From a virus (lineage: Duplodnaviria; Heunggongvirae; Uroviricota; Caudoviricetes), in IMG/VR virus record IMGVR_UViG_2651869782_000008: a DNA stretch of 6,692 bases, one strand, 5' to 3'. The notes under the pieces are model-generated. The model worked only from the letters and a program-made list of their open reading frames with translations. It was not told where the DNA came from and made no database searches. Position numbers and translations under genes: made by a program. Each line of letters begins with the position of its first letter. Position 1 is the stretch's first letter. Positions 1-6,692 of this stretch are shown here, piece after piece.

Positions 1-158
1 CCCCGCAGTACAACATCGAGATCAATAACGATGGCACGAACGGGCAGATAGGTCCGGCTGCCCTGAAGGTGGTTTATGACCTTGGGAAAAAAGCGGCAGC
101 GGACTTTATGCAACAGCAGGCCCGTGATGGTGGTCGGTTAAGTGGAGCATATCGGTAA
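1..158 (+). CDS. H: Tail tape-measure protein H, C-terminal end (5'-partial, reading frame starts at nt 3)
   Basis: Open frame from the window edge translating to ...PQYNIEINNDGTNGQIGPAALKVVYDLGKKAAADFMQQQARDGGRLSGAYR*, with stop TAA at 156-158. The stop overlaps the ATG of the next gene (TAATG), as at the lambda H/M junction. Position directly upstream of M fits the lambda order. Not in the ORF track because it has no start inside the window. Confidence 0.75.
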   Translation, partial: PQYNIEINNDGTNGQIGPAALKVVYDLGKKAAADFMQQQARDGGRLSGAYR

Positions 159-487
159 TGGAGACGTTTCACTGGAAAGTGCGCCCGGATATGAATGTGG
201 TATCAGAGCCGAAAGTGGTGACAGTGAAGCTGGGCGATGGTTATGAACAGCGTCGTGCGGCGGGACTGAATAACCAGTTGTCGACTTACAGCGTGACGAT
301 ACGTGTTCGTAAATGTGAACACCCATCTTTAAAAGCCTTTCTGGAACGGCACGGTGGCGTCCGCGCATTTCAGTGGACGCCACCTTATGACTGGAAGCCG
401 ATCAGGGTGGTTTGTCGTAAATGGTCGGCAAGCGTGGGGGCGCTGTGGGTAACCATAACGGCAGATTTTGAACAGGTCGTGGCATAG
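158..487 (+). CDS. M: Minor tail protein M (tail tip assembly)
   Basis: 109-aa ORF (METFHWKV...ADFEQVVA), the same length as lambda gpM and in the expected position between H and L. GGAG at 144-147 sits about 10 nt upstream of the ATG. Stop TAG at 485-487. Confidence 0.88.
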   Translation: METFHWKVRPDMNVVSEPKVVTVKLGDGYEQRRAAGLNNQLSTYSVTIRVRKCEHPSLKAFLERHGGVRAFQWTPPYDWKPIRVVCRKWSASVGALWVTITADFEQVVA

Positions 488-496
488 GAGGCTCTG

Positions 497-1195
497 ATGC
501 AGGATATTCCACAGGAAACACATCATGAGACGACACGCCTCACTCAGTCAGCCCAGGTGGTGCTCTGGGAAATCGATCTGACAGAGGTCGGTGGTGAACG
601 TTATTTTTTCTGTAATGAGCAGAACGAAAAAGGTGAGCCGGTTACCTGGCAGGGGCGGCAGTATCAGGCATACCCCATTCAGGGGACGGGATTTGAACTG
701 AACGGCAAGGGCAGTGCTGCCCGTCCGACACTGACGGTTTCTAACCTGCACGGAATGGTCACCGGGATGGCGGAAGACCTGCAGAGTCTGGTCGGCGGAA
801 CGGTGGTCAGGCGTAAGGTTTACGCCCGTTTTCTGGATGCGGTGAACTTCGTCAACGGAAACAGTGACGCCGATCCGGAGCAGGAGGTGATCAGCCGCTG
901 GCGCATCGAGCAGTGCAGCGAACTGAGCGCGGTCAGTGCCTCTTTTGTACTGTCCACGCCGACGGAAACGGACGGTGCTGTTTTTCCGGGGCGCATCATG
1001 CTGGCTAATACCTGCACCTGGACCTATCGCGGTGATGAGTGCGGTTATCACGGTCCGGCTGTCGCTGATGAATATGACCAGCCGACGTCCGATATCACGA
1101 AGGATAAATGCAGCAAATGCCTGAGTGGTTGTAAGTTTCGCAATAACGTCGGCAACTTTGGCGGCTTCCTTTCCATTAACAAACTTTCGCAGTAA
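497..1195 (+). CDS. L: Minor tail protein L (tail tip assembly, Fe-S cluster-binding)
   Basis: 232-aa ORF, the length of lambda gpL. AGGAGG at 486-491 lies 5 nt upstream of the ATG. The C-terminal region carries clustered cysteines (NTCTW, DECGY, DKCSKC, SGCKF) consistent with the [4Fe-4S] site reported for gpL. Confidence 0.88.
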   Translation: MQDIPQETHHETTRLTQSAQVVLWEIDLTEVGGERYFFCNEQNEKGEPVTWQGRQYQAYPIQGTGFELNGKGSAARPTLTVSNLHGMVTGMAEDLQSLVGGTVVRRKVYARFLDAVNFVNGNSDADPEQEVISRWRIEQCSELSAVSASFVLSTPTETDGAVFPGRIMLANTCTWTYRGDECGYHGPAVADEYDQPTSDITKDKCSKCLSGCKFRNNVGNFGGFLSINKLSQ

Positions 1196-1199
1196 TCCC

Positions 1200-1944
1200 A
1201 TGACACAGACAGAATCAGCGATTCTGGCGCACGCCCGGCGATGTGCGCCAGCGGAGTCGTGCGGCTTCGTGGTGAGAACGCCGGAAGGGGAAAGATATTT
1301 TCCCTGCGTGAATATCTCCGGTGAGCCGGAGGAGTATTTCCGGATGGCGCCGGAGGACTGGCTGCAGGCAGACACTGCACGGTCAGATTGTGGCGCTGGT
1401 CCACAGCCACCCCGGTGGTCTGCCCAGGCTGAGTGAAGCCGACCGGCGGCTGCAGGTGCAGAGTGATTTGCCGTGGTGGCTGGTCTGCCGGGGGGCGATT
1501 CACAAGTTCCGCTGTGTGCCGCATCTCACCGGGCGGCGCTTTGAGCACGGGGTGACGGACTGTTACACACTGTTCCGGGATGCTTACCATCTGGCGGGAA
1601 TTGAGATGCCTGATTTTTATCGTGAGGATGACTGGTGGCGTCACGGTCAGAATCTCTATCTGGATAATCTGGAGGCAACGGGGCTGTATCAGGTTCCGTT
1701 GTCAGCGGCGCAGCCGGGCGATGTGCTGCTGTGCTGTTTTGGTTCATCGGTGCCGAATCATGCCGCCATTTACTGTGGTGACGGCGAGCTGCTGCACCAT
1801 ATTCCTGAACAACTGAGCAAACGAGAGAGGTATACCGACAAATGGCAGCGACGCACACACTCCCTCTGGCGTCACCGGGCATGGCACGCATCTGCCTTTA
1901 CGGGGATTTGCAACGATTTGGCCGCCGCATCGACCTTCGTGTGA
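1200..1944 (+). pseudogene. K: Tail assembly protein K (JAMM/MPN + NlpC/P60 domains), interrupted by a +1 frame offset; possible pseudogene or sequence error
   Basis: The N-terminal part (MTQTESAILAHARRCAPAESCGFVV...PEDWLQAD) is read in one frame from ATG 1200 and hits a stop at 1434-1436. The rest of the protein (..GQIVALVHSHPGGLPRLSEAD...GVTDCYTLF...NHAAIYCGDGELLHH...STFV) is in the +1 frame and ends at 1944. The 16 nt between the conserved Ala codon (1368-1370) and the conserved Ile codon (1387-1389) is not a multiple of 3. The JAMM Glu motif (E-x-C-G) is in the first frame; the HxH-x7-S-xx-D motif (codons from 1402) and the NlpC/P60 Cys (1561-1563) are in the second. The 3' end overlaps I by 103 nt, as in lambda. 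Confidence 0.7.
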
Positions 1945-2489
1945 AAACGGGGGCCGAAGCCATCCGGGCGCTGGCCACACAGCTCCCGGCGTTTCGTCAG
2001 AAGCTGAATGACGGCTGGTATCAGGTGCGCATTGCCGGGCGTGATGCAGGTGAAACCGAATTATCTGCCCGTCTTAATGAGCCGCTGGCAAATGGTGCCG
2101 TGATCCATATCGTGCCGCGTCTGGCGGGAGCTAAAAGTGGCGGTGTATTTCAGGTGGTGCTGGGGGCGGCGTTGATTGCGGTGGCATGGTGGAACCCTGT
2201 GGGCTGGCTGGGTGCCGCGGCTGTATCGGGCATGTATGCGGCAGGGGCCAGTATGATCCTGGGCGGTGTGGCGCAGATGCTGGCACCGAAAGCCAGGACC
2301 CCAACAACAACCAGCACAGATAACGGCAAACAGAACACCTATTTCTCATCACTGGATAACATGGTTGCCCAGGGCAATGTTCTGCCTGTTCTGTACGGTG
2401 AAATGCGTGTGGGGTCACGGGTAATTTCGCAGGAAATCAGCACGGCAGACGAAGGGGATGGTGGTGAAATCGTGGTGATTGGTCGCTGA
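1842..2489 (+). CDS. I: Tail assembly protein I
   Basis: 215-aa ORF beginning MAATHTLPLASPGMARICLYGDLQRFGRRIDLRVKTGAEAIRALA and ending ...QEISTADEGDGGEIVVIGR, which matches my recollection of lambda gpI at both ends. It has a central Gly/Ala-rich hydrophobic segment. GAGAGG at 1824-1829 lies upstream of the ATG. The start is embedded in the 3' end of K. Confidence 0.88.
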   Translation: MAATHTLPLASPGMARICLYGDLQRFGRRIDLRVKTGAEAIRALATQLPAFRQKLNDGWYQVRIAGRDAGETELSARLNEPLANGAVIHIVPRLAGAKSGGVFQVVLGAALIAVAWWNPVGWLGAAAVSGMYAAGASMILGGVAQMLAPKARTPTTTSTDNGKQNTYFSSLDNMVAQGNVLPVLYGEMRVGSRVISQEISTADEGDGGEIVVIGR

Positions 2490-2507
2490 TGCAGAATGTT
2501 TTATGTG

Positions 2508-2535
2508 AAACCGCCTCCGGGCGGTTTTGTCGTTT
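2508..2535 (+). promoter_or_regulatory. Intergenic stem-loop between I and J (possible attenuator or RNA processing/stability element)
   Basis: Perfect inverted repeat AAACCGCC (2508-2515) / GGCGGTTT (2520-2527) around a 4-nt loop TCCG, followed by a T-rich tail TGTCGTTT. It lies in the 60-nt I-J gap, just upstream of the J ribosome-binding site GGAG (2538-2541). Confidence 0.35.
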
Positions 2536-2549
2536 ATGGAGCATGACGA

Positions 2550-5500
2550 ATGGGTAAAGGCAGCAGTAAGGGGCATACCCCGCGCGAAGCGAAGGACAAC
2601 CTGAAATCCACGCAGTTGCTGAGTGTGATCGATGCCATCAGTGAAGGGCCGGTTGAAGGTCCGGTGGATGGCTTAAAAAGCGTGCTGCTGAACAGTACGC
2701 CGGTGCTGGACAGTGAGGGGAATACCAATATCTCCGGCGTCACGGTGGTGTTCCGGGCAGGTGAGCAGGAGCAGACACCGCCGGAGGGATTTGAATCCTC
2801 CGGCTCCGAGACGGTGCTGGGTACGGAAGTGAAATACGACACGCCGATCACCCGCACCATCACGTCGGCAAACATCGACCGTCTGCGCCTGACCTTCGGT
2901 GTACAGGCACTGGTGGAAACCACCTCAAAGGGAGACAGGAATCCGTCGGAAGTCCGCCTGCTGGTTCAGATACAACGTAACGGTGGCTGGGTGACGGAAA
3001 AAGACATCACCATTAAGGGCAAAACCACCTCGCAGTATCTGGCCTCGGTGGTGGTGGATAACCTGCCGCCGCGCCCGTTCAATATCCGGATGCGCAGGAT
3101 GACGCCGGACAGCACCACAGACCAGCTGCAGAACAAAACGCTCTGGTCGTCATACACCGAAATCATCGATGTGAAACAGTGCTACCCGAACACGGCACTG
3201 GTCGGCGTGCAGGTGGACTCGGAGCAGTTCGGCAGCCAGCAGGTGAGCCGTAATTATCATCTTCGCGGGCGCATTCTGCAGGTGCCGTCGAACTATAACC
3301 CGCAGACGCGGCAATACAGCGGTATCTGGGACGGAACGTTTAAGCCAGCATACAGCAACAACATGGCCTGGTGTCTGTGGGATATGCTGACCCACCCGCG
3401 CTACGGCATGGGGAAACGTCTTGGTGCGGCGGATGTGGACAAATGGGCGCTGTATGTCATCGGCCAGTACTGCGACCAGTCAGTACCGGACGGCTCTGGC
3501 GGCACGGAGCCGCGCATCACCTGTAATGCGTACCTGACCACACAGCGCAAGGCGTGGGATGTGCTCAGTGATTTCTGCTCGGCGATGCGCTGTATGCCGG
3601 TATGGAACGGGCAGACGCTGACGTTCGTGCAGGACCGACCATCAGATAAGGTGTGGACCTATAACCGCAGTAATGTGGTGATGCCGGATGATGGCGCGCC
3701 GTTCCGCTACAGCTTCAGCGCCCTGAAGGACCGCCATAATGCCGTTGAGGTGAACTGGATTGACCCGAACAACGGCTGGGAGACGGCGACAGAGCTTGTG
3801 GAAGACACGCAGGCCATTGCCCGTTACGGTCGCAATGTCACGAAGATGGATGCCTTTGGCTGTACCAGCCGGGGGCAGGCACACCGCGCCGGGCTGTGGC
3901 TGATTAAAACAGAACTGCTGGAAACGCAGACCGTGGACTTCAGCGTCGGCGCAGAAGGGCTTCGCCATGTACCGGGCGATGTTATTGAAATCTGCGATGA
4001 TGACTATGCCGGTATCAGCACCGGTGGTCGCGTGCTGGCGGTGAACAGCCAGACCCGGACGCTGACGCTCGACCGTGAAATCACGCTGCCATCCTCCGGC
4101 ACCACGCTGATAAGCCTGGTTGACGGGCAGGGTAATCCGGTGAGCGTGGAGGTCCAGTCCGTCACCGACGGCGTGAAGGTGAAAGTGAGCCGTGTTCCTG
4201 ACGGCGTTGCTGAATACAGCGTGTGGGGGCTGAAGTTGCCGACGCTGCGCCAGCGCCTGTTCCGCTGCGTGAGTATCCGTGAGAACGACGACGGCACGTA
4301 TGCCATCACTGCCGTGCAGCATGTACCGGAAAAAGAAGCCATCGTGGATAACGGGGCGCACTTTGACGGTGACCAGAGCAGCACGGTGAATGGTGTCACG
4401 CCGCCAGCAGTGCAGCACCTGACCGCCGAAGTCACCGCAGACAGCGGGGAATATCAGGTGCTGGCGCGCTGGGACACGCCGAAGGTGGTGAAGGGCGTGA
4501 GCTTCCTTCTTCGCCTGACCGTGGCAGCGGATGACGGCAGTGAGCGGCTGGTCAGCACGGCCCGGACGACGGAAACCACATACCGCTTCAGGCAACTGGC
4601 GCTGGGGCGTTACACGCTGACAGTCCGGGCGGTAAATGCGTGGGGGCAGCAGGGCGATCCGGCGTCGGTATCGTTCCGGATTGCCGCACCGGCAGCGCCT
4701 GTCACTATTGAAATGATACCGGGGTATTTTCAGATAACAGCGGTCCCGAAACTGGCTGTATATGACCCGACGGTGCAGTTTGAGTTCTGGTTCTCGGAAA
4801 AGCGGATTGCGGATATCAGGCAGGTTGAAACCACAGCCCGCTATCTTGGCACGGCGCTGTACTGGATAGCTGCCAGTATCAATATCAAGCCGGGCCATGA
4901 TTATTATTTTTACATCCGCAGTGTGAACACCGTTGGCAAATCGGCATTTGTGGAGGCTGTTGGCCAGCCGAGTGATGATGCATCCGGCTATCTGGATTTT
5001 TTCAAAGGAGAGATAGGGAAAACCCATCTGGCTCAGGAGTTGTGGACGCAGATTGATAACGGTCAGCTTGCGCCTGACCTGGCTGAAATCAGGACGTCCA
5101 TTACGGATGTCAGCAATGAAATCACACAGACCGTCAATAAGAAACTGGAAGACCAGAGTGCAGCGATCCAGCAGATACAGAAGGTTCAGGTTGATACAAA
5201 TAATAACCTGAACAGCATGTGGGCTGTGAAGCTGCAGCAGATGCAGGACGGACGCCTTTATATCGCGGGTATTGGTGCCGGTATTGAAAACACCCCTGAC
5301 GGCATGCAGAGTCAGGTGCTGCTGGCGGCAGACAGGATTGCGATGATTAATCCTGCGAATGGCAACACAAAGCCGATGTTTGTTGGGCAGGGCGATCAGA
5401 TATACATGAATGAAGTGTTCCTGAAATATCTGACGGCTCCCACCATTACCAGCGGCGGTAATCCTCCGGCATTTTCCCTGACACCGGACGGGCGACTGAC

Positions 5501-6032
5501 GGCGAAAAATGCGGATATCAGTGGCAGTGTGAATGCGAACTCCGGGACGCTCAATAACGTCACGATAAATGAGAACTGTCAGATTAAGGGGAAACTGTCC
5601 GCCAACCAGATTGAAGGCGATATTGTCAAAACGGTCAGCAAGTCTTTCCCCCGCACGAGCACTTATGCCAGCGGCACCATTACGGTCACGATTAGTGATG
5701 ATCAGAAGTTTGACCGACAGGTCATGATCCCGGCTCTGCTGTTTAAAGGAAGCAGGAAGGAAAATTATGGCAGTAATAATCAACAGTCTTATGTTTATTC
5801 TGTATGCCGTTTGCAGGTAACGAAAAACGGGACAGAAATTTTTAATCAGTCAACAACGGATGCTCCGGCGGTTTTTTCTTCCGTTATTGATATGCCTGCG
5901 GGGCAGGGAACGTTGACGTTAAAGTTTACGGTCTCTTCTTCAATGGTCAATAACTGGACACCGACAACCAGTATCAGCGATTTGCTTGTTGTGGTGATGA
6001 AGAAATCCACCGCAGGTATCACGATTAGCTGA
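2550..6032 (+). CDS. J: Tail tip host-specificity protein J (central tail fibre)
   Basis: 1160-aa ORF with GGAG 8 nt upstream of the ATG. The N-terminal two-thirds are strongly lambda-J-like ([43 protein letters not shown]...). Two tandem fibronectin type III-like modules sit at about aa 615-800, followed by a heptad-like coiled-coil stretch and an AT-richer C-terminal domain. Confidence 0.93.
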
Positions 6033-6050
6033 ATTTTATAACCCATATAC

Positions 6051-6078
6051 GGGCGCCAGAAATGGCGCCTTTTTTATT
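6051..6078 (+). terminator. Rho-independent terminator downstream of J
   Basis: GC-rich 7-bp stem GGCGCCA (6052-6058) / TGGCGCC (6063-6069) with a GAAA tetraloop, followed immediately by TTTTTTATT (6070-6078). It begins 19 nt after the J stop. Confidence 0.75.
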
Positions 6079-6099
6079 GCAGAAAAGCGAGAGGTAATT

Positions 6100-6692
6100 A
6101 TGCGTAAAGTTTGTGCAGCAATTTTGTCCGCAGCCATTTGTCTGGCCGTATCCGGTGCGCCTGCATGGGCGTCTGAACATCAGTCCACGCTGAGCGCGGG
6201 GTATCTTCATGCCCGGACGAACGCTCCCGGCAGCGATAATCTTAACGGGATTAACGTGAAATACCGTTATGAATTTACGGACACGCTGGGGCTGGTGACG
6301 TCATTCAGCTATGCAGGAGACAGGAATCGCCAGCTGACCCGTTACAGCGATACCCGCTGGCATGAAGATTCCGTGCGTAACCGCTGGTTCAGCGTGATGG
6401 TGGGGCCGTCTGTGCGCGTGAATGAATGGTTCAGCGCGTATGCGATGGCGGGTGTGGCTTACAGCCGTGTGTCGACTTTCTCCGGGGATTATCTCCGCGT
6501 AACTGACAACAAGGGGAAAACGCACGACGTGCTGACCGGAAGTGATGACGGTCGCCACAGCAACACGTCTCTGGCGTGGGGAGCTGGCGTGCAGTTTAAC
6601 CCGACCGAATCCGTGGCCATTGATATTGCTTATGAAGGCTCCGGCAGTGGCGACTGGCGCACTGACGGTTTCATCGTGGGTGTCGGTTATAA
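6100..6692 (+). CDS. lom: Outer membrane protein Lom (Ail/Lom/OmpX-family beta-barrel), 3'-partial at window edge
   Basis: ATG at 6100 preceded by GAGAGG (6089-6094). Translation MRKVCAAILSAAICLAVSGAPAWA|SEHQSTLSAGYLHARTN... has a classic signal peptide with an AWA cleavage site. Alternating aromatic/hydrophobic beta-strand patterning (INVKYRYEF, WFSVMVGPSVRV, GFIVGVGY) is typical of Ail/Lom barrels. The frame is open to the end of the window. Position just after J and its terminator matches lambda lom. Confidence 0.85.
   Translation, partial: MRKVCAAILSAAICLAVSGAPAWASEHQSTLSAGYLHARTNAPGSDNLNGINVKYRYEFTDTLGLVTSFSYAGDRNRQLTRYSDTRWHEDSVRNRWFSVMVGPSVRVNEWFSAYAMAGVAYSRVSTFSGDYLRVTDNKGKTHDVLTGSDDGRHSNTSLAWGAGVQFNPTESVAIDIAYEGSGSGDWRTDGFIVGVGY

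What the first reader, a model, noticed from the sequence alone, without database searches (positions are those of the whole stretch)
6051..6692. lom moron: a host-interaction outer-membrane gene placed behind the tail operon terminator
A strong intrinsic terminator (6051-6078) is followed only 22 nt later by a good ribosome-binding site and a signal-peptide-bearing Ail/Lom-family beta-barrel gene. Only about 10 nt separate the T-tract from the RBS, leaving no room for a sigma-70 promoter. Expression must therefore come from terminator read-through or from a promoter buried in the AT-rich 3' end of J. Lom-family proteins are linked to adhesion and serum resistance, so this is the lysogenic-conversion part of the window.
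Basis: partly seen in the sequence, partly recalled or inferred. Interest (0 to 1): 0.45.

Follow-up and report, generated by a model that had tools for sequence, protein, structure and literature searches.

The report
Lom gene behind internal tail-operon terminator
This is the ordinary lom outer-membrane gene of a lambda-like prophage, in its usual slot after tail gene J behind a conserved hairpin terminator; the layout is long known, and only the source of its prophage-state transcription is still unmapped.

Summary
J stops at 6032. A perfect 7-bp G+C stem (8 pairs with a G-U) plus T6 lies at 6051-6078, an SD (GAGAGGT) at 6089-6095, and an Ail/Lom ORF starts at 6100 (not 6101). The ORF runs off the window because the window is a whole 6692-bp contig. 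Such a hairpin arises in 7 of 1000 shuffles. It is kept, with compensatory stem changes, in 29 J-lom junction variants, including lambda.

No sigma-70-like promoter fits after the terminator. None is detectable in the last 700 nt of J either, so the "buried promoter" idea has no sequence support. Lom is not behind the end of the tail operon. In lambda and in the nearest relative it sits between J and the side-tail-fibre gene stf, with a second terminator after it.

The best reading is a promoter-less cassette inside the late operon, transcribed mainly by Q-antiterminated polymerase. This fits reports that lambda Lom rises sharply late in infection.

Lom's G+C content matches the tail genes, so two classical moron criteria fail.

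Recent work reports that overexpressed Lom blocks lambda-vir, and PDB 9wso holds Lom together with LamB. Together these point to receptor masking as much as lysogenic conversion.

Verdict: already known, low interest.

The parts
2550..6032 (+). Tail tip attachment gene J (1160 aa). Its last ~690 nt encode the receptor-binding end.
   Evidence: Six gpJ Pfam domains. The C-terminal 230 aa match PDB 9wca 'A8 gpJ' at E=5e-126. GC is 47.5% in 5340-6032 against 58% upstream.
6033..6099 (+). J-lom intergenic spacer, 67 nt, 40% GC.
   Evidence: The same length class (61-71 nt) occurs in 142 of 143 J-lom junctions.
6051..6070 (+). G+C-rich hairpin: 7 Watson-Crick pairs plus a G-U pair, with a GAAA loop.
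   Evidence: -15.1 kcal/mol. In 29 junction variants 94.6% of cells are paired, 3 of 7 pairs show compensatory double changes, and 0 of 500 shuffles reach this.
6070..6078 (+). T-tract TTTTTTATT directly after the stem; together with the hairpin it forms an intrinsic-terminator motif.
   Evidence: Nearly invariant across the junction variants. The reverse strand has no T-run, so the motif is one-directional (sequence).
6089..6095 (+). Shine-Dalgarno sequence GAGAGGT, 4 nt before the ATG.
   Evidence: Sequence. The AGAGGT core (6090-6095) is invariant in all 29 junction variants; the first G varies.
6100..6171 (+). Sec-type signal peptide (24 codons, MRK...PAWA|SE).
   Evidence: Translation. 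Mature OmpX/Ail chains align from residues 26-29. No signal-peptide predictor was run.
6100..6692 (+). lom (Ail/Lom family outer-membrane beta-barrel), 197 of 199 codons, cut by the contig end.
   Evidence: Pfam PF06316 E=2.6e-119. 98.5% aa identity to phage cdtI Lom, 95.9% to phage 434 Lom and 43% to lambda Lom. Contig end shown.

Best explanation
lom here is a promoter-less cassette inside the lambdoid late operon.

Transcription. A structurally conserved intrinsic terminator sits between J and lom. In relatives a second one sits between lom and stf. During lytic growth, RNA polymerase modified by the phage Q antiterminator at pR' ignores both. lom is then co-transcribed with J and the side-tail-fibre genes. 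In the repressed prophage the upstream terminator blocks unmodified polymerase coming from the tail genes, so only a trickle of lom mRNA is made. That trickle would come from terminator leak or from a weak, still unmapped start.

Translation and export. The message is translated from a strong SD and exported by a Sec signal peptide. The protein inserts as an 8-stranded barrel in the outer membrane.

Function. Lom would add host-interaction properties (adhesion was reported for lambda Lom). More probably it masks the phage's own receptor, so that progeny or superinfecting phage are not wasted on infected cells.

Shown here: the anatomy, family membership, conservation and covariation of the hairpin, and the absence of a recognisable promoter. 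Shown in relatives only: the position between J and stf and the second terminator, since the contig ends inside lom. Inferred: Q-dependent read-through (from lambda biology; Q is not in the window), actual termination, and the receptor-masking role for this Lom type.
For: - Anatomy.
- Hairpin beyond chance: 7 of 1000 shuffles.
- The same layout (J stop, about 18 nt, G+C hairpin, T-tract, about 12 nt, SD, ATG) occurs in three Lom lineages that are 43-62% identical at protein level, including lambda. The stem sequences differ.
- Compensatory changes occur in 3 of 7 stem pairs, with 94.6% of cells paired and 0 of 500 shuffles as high.
- No sigma-70-like site: (best 7.9, against a shuffle-maximum median of 9.7; lacUV5 scores 14.0, PR 12.6).
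- lom is followed by a second terminator and then stf in the nearest relative and in lambda.
- lom's GC equals that of the tail genes.
- Literature: lom lies between two tail-fibre genes (PMC1151598). [quoted passage not shown]
- PDB 9wso contains both Lom and maltoporin.
- Contrast case: 933W/Phi24B-type lom has a 90-nt A+T-rich upstream spacer, no upstream terminator and a better promoter-like site. Its expression is reported as independent of induction (PMC3342100).
Against: - Lambda lom is repeatedly reported as expressed in repressed lysogens. That needs some transcription start which I could not find. One array study did fail to detect it, and says little is known about the lom promoter (PMC2147009).
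- Promoter scans by consensus or PWM miss activator-dependent and weak promoters.
- No expression data exist for this element.
- Q, pR' and stf are outside the contig.
- This Lom is only 43% identical to lambda Lom and is paired with a different J receptor-binding end. LamB binding therefore cannot be transferred to it.
- Tail gene K is frameshifted in this contig, so the prophage may be defective.
Confidence: 0.72

Rival explanations
1. Classical moron. lom has its own weak or activator-dependent promoter, overlapping the last codons of J, the 18-nt spacer or the hairpin. Prophage-state expression from it is the selected function (lysogenic conversion: adhesion, serum resistance).
For: Papers state that lambda lom is transcribed in lysogens. 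A short motif, TTTAT(A/T)AACCC, upstream of the hairpin is shared by two Lom lineages and contains a TATAAC -10-like hexamer. Other Lom homologues (933W, Gifsy-2) do look independently promoted.
Against: No -35 or extended -10 accompanies TATAAC, and the motif is absent from lambda. The PWM and consensus scans find nothing above the shuffle level. A start there would place the hairpin and U-tract at the very 5' end of the transcript, so it would still face termination. lom's GC does not differ from the tail genes. A sigma-54-like TGGCGC...TTGCA has the wrong spacing (N8 instead of N5).
Confidence: 0.2
2. The hairpin is mainly an RNA stability or processing element rather than a terminator. It would act as a 3' protective stem for the J message, or as a 5' protective stem for a processed lom message.
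For: The stem is conserved by compensatory changes while the loop varies, and in one variant the loop is inverted. That shows selection on RNA or DNA structure but not on which function. Q-modified polymerase would not terminate there anyway.
Against: A nearly invariant run of six or more T directly after the stem defines an intrinsic terminator and is not needed for a stability stem. A similar stem plus T-run follows lom as well. The two roles are not exclusive.
Confidence: 0.08

Closest known systems
Phage lambda J-lom-stf region (NC_001416 18903-19650)
   Same: Same gene order and the same junction plan: J stop, hairpin CGTCCG-GGAA-CGGGCG, T-tract, SD GAGAGGTG, lom ATG 61 nt after J. A strong terminator lies between lom and stf.
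   Different: Lom is only 43% identical. The stem sequence differs and is weaker (-9.7 against -15.1 kcal/mol). The J receptor-binding end is of another type.
Lom of phages cdtI, 434 and mEp460, and of long-tailed Stx prophages
   Same: 94-98.5% protein identity. The T-tract-to-ATG leader is invariant among the IMG/VR and genome junctions collected, and J is the upstream gene.
   Different: Nothing of substance. The window is one more allele; the best complete E. coli genome match is 98% at DNA level.
lom of short-tailed Stx phages 933W / Phi24B
   Same: Ail/Lom family barrel with a downstream intrinsic terminator.
   Different: About 40% identity. It does not follow J. It has a 90-nt A+T-rich upstream spacer without a terminator and with a better promoter-like site. 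Its expression is reported as the same in lysogens and in induced cells (PMC3342100).
Cor of HK022 / phi80 / N15 and Llp of T5 (receptor-blocking exclusion proteins encoded next to the receptor-binding gene)
   Same: An envelope protein is encoded just downstream of the tail-tip or receptor-binding gene. HK022 carries cor about 1 kb after J, where this phage carries lom. For lambda Lom, recent data indicate binding of the phage's own receptor.
   Different: There is no sequence relationship. Cor and Llp are small lipoprotein-like proteins acting on FhuA (my own knowledge). Receptor masking has not been shown for this Lom type.
Chromosomal OmpX, Yersinia Ail, Salmonella PagC/Rck
   Same: Same fold family. 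OmpX and Ail structures match at E~1e-17 over the whole mature protein, and NCBIfam OmpX and Rck models give sub-threshold hits.
   Different: These are below the equivalog cut-offs, so Lom is a paralogous phage branch. They are chromosomal or plasmid genes with their own regulated promoters.

Membership tests
Ail/Lom/OmpX outer-membrane beta-barrel family (Pfam PF06316) | Full-length match to the family profile above the curated cut-off | tested here: met
   396.6 bits against a cut-off of 23, covering profile positions 1-197 of 199.
Ail/Lom/OmpX outer-membrane beta-barrel family (Pfam PF06316) | Cleavable N-terminal Sec signal peptide | tested here: met
   MRK, then a 17-residue hydrophobic run, then AWA|S. 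Mature OmpX/Ail chains align from residues 26-29. This rests on inspection only; no predictor was run.
Ail/Lom/OmpX outer-membrane beta-barrel family (Pfam PF06316) | Eight-stranded barrel fold | tested here: met
   By homology only. There are end-to-end sequence matches to solved Lom (9wso_C, E=1.5e-48), OmpX and Ail structures.
Ail/Lom/OmpX outer-membrane beta-barrel family (Pfam PF06316) | C-terminal beta-signal ending in an aromatic residue | not testable with these tools
   The contig ends two codons short. Relatives end in ...GVGYKF.
Intrinsic (Rho-independent) terminator | G+C-rich stem-loop immediately followed by a T-run, downstream of a stop codon | tested here: met
   It starts 19 nt after the J stop.
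Intrinsic (Rho-independent) terminator | Structure maintained in evolution | tested here: met
   3 of 7 pairs carry compensatory changes, 94.6% of cells are paired, and slid controls give 31-61%. Caveat: the sequences are related.
Intrinsic (Rho-independent) terminator | Actually releases transcripts | not testable with these tools
   Needs Term-seq or in vitro transcription.
Moron (Juhala/Hendrix sense: autonomous insert in a phage operon) | Own promoter | tested here: not met
   There is no room after the T-tract, and no sigma-70-like site above shuffle level in 5401-6110. Weak or activator-dependent promoters cannot be excluded.
Moron (Juhala/Hendrix sense: autonomous insert in a phage operon) | Own downstream terminator | tested here: inconclusive
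   It lies outside the contig. It is present in the 98%-identical relative and in lambda.
Moron (Juhala/Hendrix sense: autonomous insert in a phage operon) | Base composition different from neighbouring genes | tested here: not met
   lom has 56.7% GC, the tail genes 53-59% and the window 56.1%.
Moron (Juhala/Hendrix sense: autonomous insert in a phage operon) | Present in some related phages and absent from others at the same place | tested here: met
   HK022 has no lom after J and carries cor instead. Gifsy-2 has its Lom homologue between M and L.
Moron (Juhala/Hendrix sense: autonomous insert in a phage operon) | Expressed from the repressed prophage | not testable with these tools
   The literature on lambda is mixed: yes, not detected.
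Receptor-masking / superinfection-exclusion envelope proteins | Binds or blocks the receptor used by the phage that encodes it | not testable with these tools
   For lambda Lom only: the anti-lambda-vir phenotype (PMC12366544) and a PDB entry holding Lom and LamB. The receptor of this J type is unknown to me.

The most novel reading that the evidence does not exclude
In the J-lom arrangement, lom is not a lysogenic-conversion gene. It would be a Q-dependent late gene, kept silent in the prophage by the two flanking terminators. Its job would be to mask the receptor recognised by the neighbouring J protein, so that progeny are not lost on infected cells or debris. The lom signal seen in lysogen cultures would then come largely from spontaneously induced cells. 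Lom surface loops would track receptor type across lambdoid phages.
Probability: 0.3. Interest if true: 0.45.

Novelty: already known. Interest (0 to 1): 0.15.

Why it matters
It matters little for discovery. The gene, its position and its family have been textbook lambda biology since the genome was sequenced.

The useful residue is a sharpened small question. The J-lom type of lom has no visible promoter and sits behind a conserved terminator, whereas the 933W type looks autonomously transcribed. With the new evidence that lambda Lom binds LamB, this gives a testable prediction: J-linked lom genes are late, Q-dependent receptor-masking genes rather than virulence cargo. That bears on how "virulence" annotations of prophage lom genes in pathogenic E. 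coli should be read.

Tried and rejected
- Rfam: no hit at gathering thresholds. Relaxed hits were terminator-like chance matches far below cut-off.
- sigma-70 promoter: neither the consensus scan nor my own PWM found a site in the J 3' end or the intergenic spacer above shuffle level.
- sigma-54 reading of TGGCGCC-TTTTTTA-TTGCA: rejected because the spacing is wrong.
- PhoP-box and IHF readings of the TTTATAACCC motif: only partial half-sites by eye, so not pursued.
- E. coli K-12 Rac lomR, as a way into public TSS and Term-seq knowledge: the J-lom junction is deleted there and lomR is split by IS5.
- GenBank J02459 and NC_001416: no promoter or terminator is annotated near lom.
- Liu et al. 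2013 and Casjens & Hendrix 2015 could not be opened, so their content is cited only through other papers.
- Lom type against J C-terminal type: each J type went with one Lom type, but the window's Lom type goes with four J types. The sample was selected by Lom similarity, so it gives no firm conclusion on co-evolution.
- The genome-contig scan used narrow peptide patterns and mostly returned Escherichia/Shigella plus lambda DNA contamination, so it added little taxonomic breadth.
- The identity of the 'A8' phage behind PDB 9wca was not found in the literature library.

Full report
**What is in the window.** The 6692 bases are a lambdoid tail module on the + strand:
- M: 158-487
- L: 497-1195
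- K: about 1200-1944
- I: 1842-2489
- J: 2550-6032, 1160 aa with six gpJ-specific Pfam domains

After the J stop codon (6030-6032) comes a 67-nt spacer and then an ORF that starts at 6100 and runs to the last base. The window is in fact a whole contig, JHRV01000099.1 of assembly GCA_001265655.1. The ORF is therefore cut by the assembly, not by a mutation.

**Checking the observation.** The hairpin GGGCGCCA-GAAA-TGGCGCCT lies at 6051-6070. It is followed by TTTTTTATTG.
- Alone it folds at -15.1 kcal/mol, and it is present in the MFE fold of the spacer RNA.
- It is the only perfect stem of at least 7 bp with at least 5 G-C pairs followed by T5 on either strand. Only 7 of 1000 dinucleotide-preserving shuffles of the window contain such a motif anywhere. 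Here it falls exactly in the intergenic gap.
- The Shine-Dalgarno GAGAGGT is at 6089-6095, 4 nt before the ATG at 6100.
- The ORF translates to 197 residues that match Pfam Ail_Lom over profile positions 1-197 of 199 (396.6 bits, E=2.6e-119).
- It begins with a typical Sec signal peptide ending AWA|SE. Mature OmpX and Ail chains align from residues 26-29.
- Relatives end with two more codons, K-F, and are 199 aa long.

**The junction is a conserved design.** I collected about 200 loci from viral contigs, species genomes and annotated phages. These gave 29 distinct J-lom junction sequences. They cover three Lom lineages that are only 43-62% identical as proteins: the window's 434/cdtI type, a second Escherichia prophage type, and lambda itself.

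All 29 share one plan: J stop, about 18 nt, a G+C-rich stem, a T-run, about 12 A-rich nt, the AGAGGT core of the SD, then the ATG.

The stems differ by paired substitutions: GGCGCC/GGCGCC, GGCGTC/GACGCC and GGCACC/GGTGCC. Lambda uses a different stem, CGTCCG/CGGGCG. On the alignment:
- 94.6% of cells are paired;
- 3 of the 7 pairs show changes on both sides (27 cells);
- none of 500 shuffles reaches these values;
- sliding the partner by 1-3 columns drops pairing to 31-61%.

The sequences are related, so this is not a formal probability. Still, the hairpin is clearly under selection as a structure, and the T-run after it is nearly invariant. That combination is what defines an intrinsic terminator.

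**Where lom sits.** Context from relatives says otherwise.
- In the closest complete genome (98% DNA identity), lom is followed after 21 nt by a second strong terminator (AGCCCGCCGG...GGCGGGTTTTTTTT). Eighteen nt further on comes the start of the side-tail-fibre gene.
- Lambda has the same arrangement.
- PMC1151598 describes lom as embedded between two tail-fibre genes.

So lom is bracketed by two terminators inside the late operon. The downstream late genes stf and tfa can only be reached by a polymerase that ignores terminators. In lambda that is the Q-modified polymerase started at pR'. This is established lambda biology; Q itself is not in this contig, so its involvement here is inferred.

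**The promoter question.** I then looked for one further upstream.
- The consensus scan finds no + strand site near the junction.
- My own hexamer-PWM scan of 5401-6110 gives a best score of 7.9. The median of the best hit in shuffled sequence is 9.7. Control promoters score 14.0 (lacUV5), 12.6 (lambda PR), 10.1 (PRM) and 8.6 (bla).
- Lambda and the second Lom type give the same negative result.
- The motif TTTAT(A/T)AACCC before the hairpin is shared by two lineages and contains TATAAC. It has no -35 or extended -10, it is missing in lambda, and a start there would put the terminator at the 5' end of the transcript.
- A sigma-54-like TGGCGC...TTGCA has the wrong spacing.

The "promoter buried in the A+T-rich end of J" therefore has no sequence support, and any such promoter would still have to pass the hairpin. 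The lower G+C of the J end (47.5% against 58%) reflects the exchangeable receptor-binding domain. That domain belongs to a different structural type from lambda's (PDB 9wca, E=5e-126, against lambda J at 2e-74).

**A contrast supports the reading.** Lom homologues that are not next to J look different.
- In 933W/Phi24B, the gene has a 90-nt A+T-rich upstream spacer with no terminator and a better promoter-like site (score 10.5).
- In Gifsy-2, the homologue lies between M and L, next to sodCI, again without an upstream terminator.

For Phi24B, lom expression was reported to be the same in stable lysogens and in induced cells (PMC3342100). For lambda, Lom expression is reported to rise dramatically late in infection (PMC12366544 citing Liu et al. 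2013). The two architectures thus match two different expression behaviours.

**Is it a moron?** Only loosely.
- No own promoter is visible.
- lom's composition (56.7% GC, GC3 62%) is the same as that of the tail genes.
- It does show presence/absence among lambdoid phages: HK022 has the exclusion gene cor after J instead.
- It has its own downstream terminator in relatives.

**What Lom does.** The traditional view for lambda Lom is expression in lysogens and adhesion to buccal cells. One array study did not detect it and states that little is known about the lom promoter (PMC2147009).

A 2025 study found that overexpressed Lom protects against lambda-vir but not T7. It proposed superinfection exclusion or late anti-adsorption (PMC12366544). 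I also found that PDB entry 9wso contains a chain named "Outer membrane protein lom" and a maltoporin chain. A Lom-LamB complex has therefore been solved.

This fits a receptor-masking role, analogous in logic to Cor and T5 Llp, with the gene placed next to the receptor-binding gene. Whether the window's Lom does the same for its own receptor is untested. It is 43% identical to lambda Lom and is paired with another J type. In my sample each J C-terminal type went with one Lom type, but this Lom type went with four J types, which is inconclusive.

**Verdict.** The feature is real and well above chance, but it is the canonical lom locus of a lambda-like prophage.
It is wrong in calling the hairpin the end of the tail operon and in suggesting a promoter in J.
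- Best explanation (confidence about 0.7): a promoter-less cassette, gated by a conserved internal terminator, transcribed chiefly by antiterminated late transcription, and encoding a secreted 8-stranded outer-membrane barrel.
- Novelty: already known.
- Interest: low. The remaining open point is the source of lom mRNA in repressed lysogens.

Noticed in passing
window 1196-1944 (break near 1370-1381): Tail gene K is split between frame +3 (1221-1370) and frame +1 (1381-1935). 365 nt of the window align to 364 nt in intact phage K genes, which means a 1-nt insertion. This is either a real pseudogene (defective prophage) or a draft-assembly error. The public gene call places a minus-strand ORF at 1048-1644 there instead.
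   Followed up: partly
window 1-6692: The window is an entire contig (JHRV01000099.1, GCA_001265655.1). It ends two codons before the lom stop. This is probably an assembly break, because lom and stf sequences are repeated in several prophages of one genome (up to 14 places per E. coli genome).
   Followed up: partly
window 5340-6032: The receptor-binding end of J has clearly lower G+C (47.5% against 58%). It is of the 'A8 gpJ 713' type solved in PDB 9wca/9wcb (E=5e-126), not the lambda/LamB type. The receptor is therefore probably not LamB. I could not identify phage A8 or its receptor.
   Followed up: partly
PDB 9wso (found with window 6100-6690 and E. coli lamB): One solved entry holds both lambda Lom and maltoporin (LamB), implying a direct Lom-receptor complex. 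No paper on it is in the library.
   Followed up: partly
L135 1-1475: An IS4-family insertion sequence (DDE_Tnp_1 plus Nterm_IS4) is inserted in the left arm of the J-lom hairpin. The right arm, T-tract, SD and lom are left intact.
   Followed up: yes
L049 about 1455-1475: In one junction variant the hairpin loop is inverted (ATTTCT instead of AGAAAT) while the stem is unchanged.
   Followed up: no
L171-L184 (genome-contig hits): Contigs with lambda-type Lom matches, some the length of the lambda genome (about 48.4-48.5 kb) and several at about 1x coverage, appear in assemblies of Neobacillus, Kitasatospora, Pseudomonas, Shewanella, Bradyrhizobium and others. This is most likely lambda control-DNA contamination.
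   Followed up: no
window 5950-5923 (- strand); also L001 6251-6224: A promoter-like site antisense to the J 3' end (TTGACC-16-TAAACT, 9 of 12) is conserved in the nearest relative. The number of such sites in the window is no higher than in shuffles, so it is probably chance.
   Followed up: no
window 3642-5783 (- strand): A 713-aa open frame lies antisense to J. This looks like a shadow ORF of a long G+C3-rich gene. It gives no evidence of a gene and was not examined further.
   Followed up: no
L198 3001-3029 against window 6064-6081: The terminator after 933W lom ends in TTTTTTATTGC. That is the same 11 nt as the T-tract and leader start before lom in the window. It may be chance or a trace of shared cassette boundaries.
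   Followed up: no
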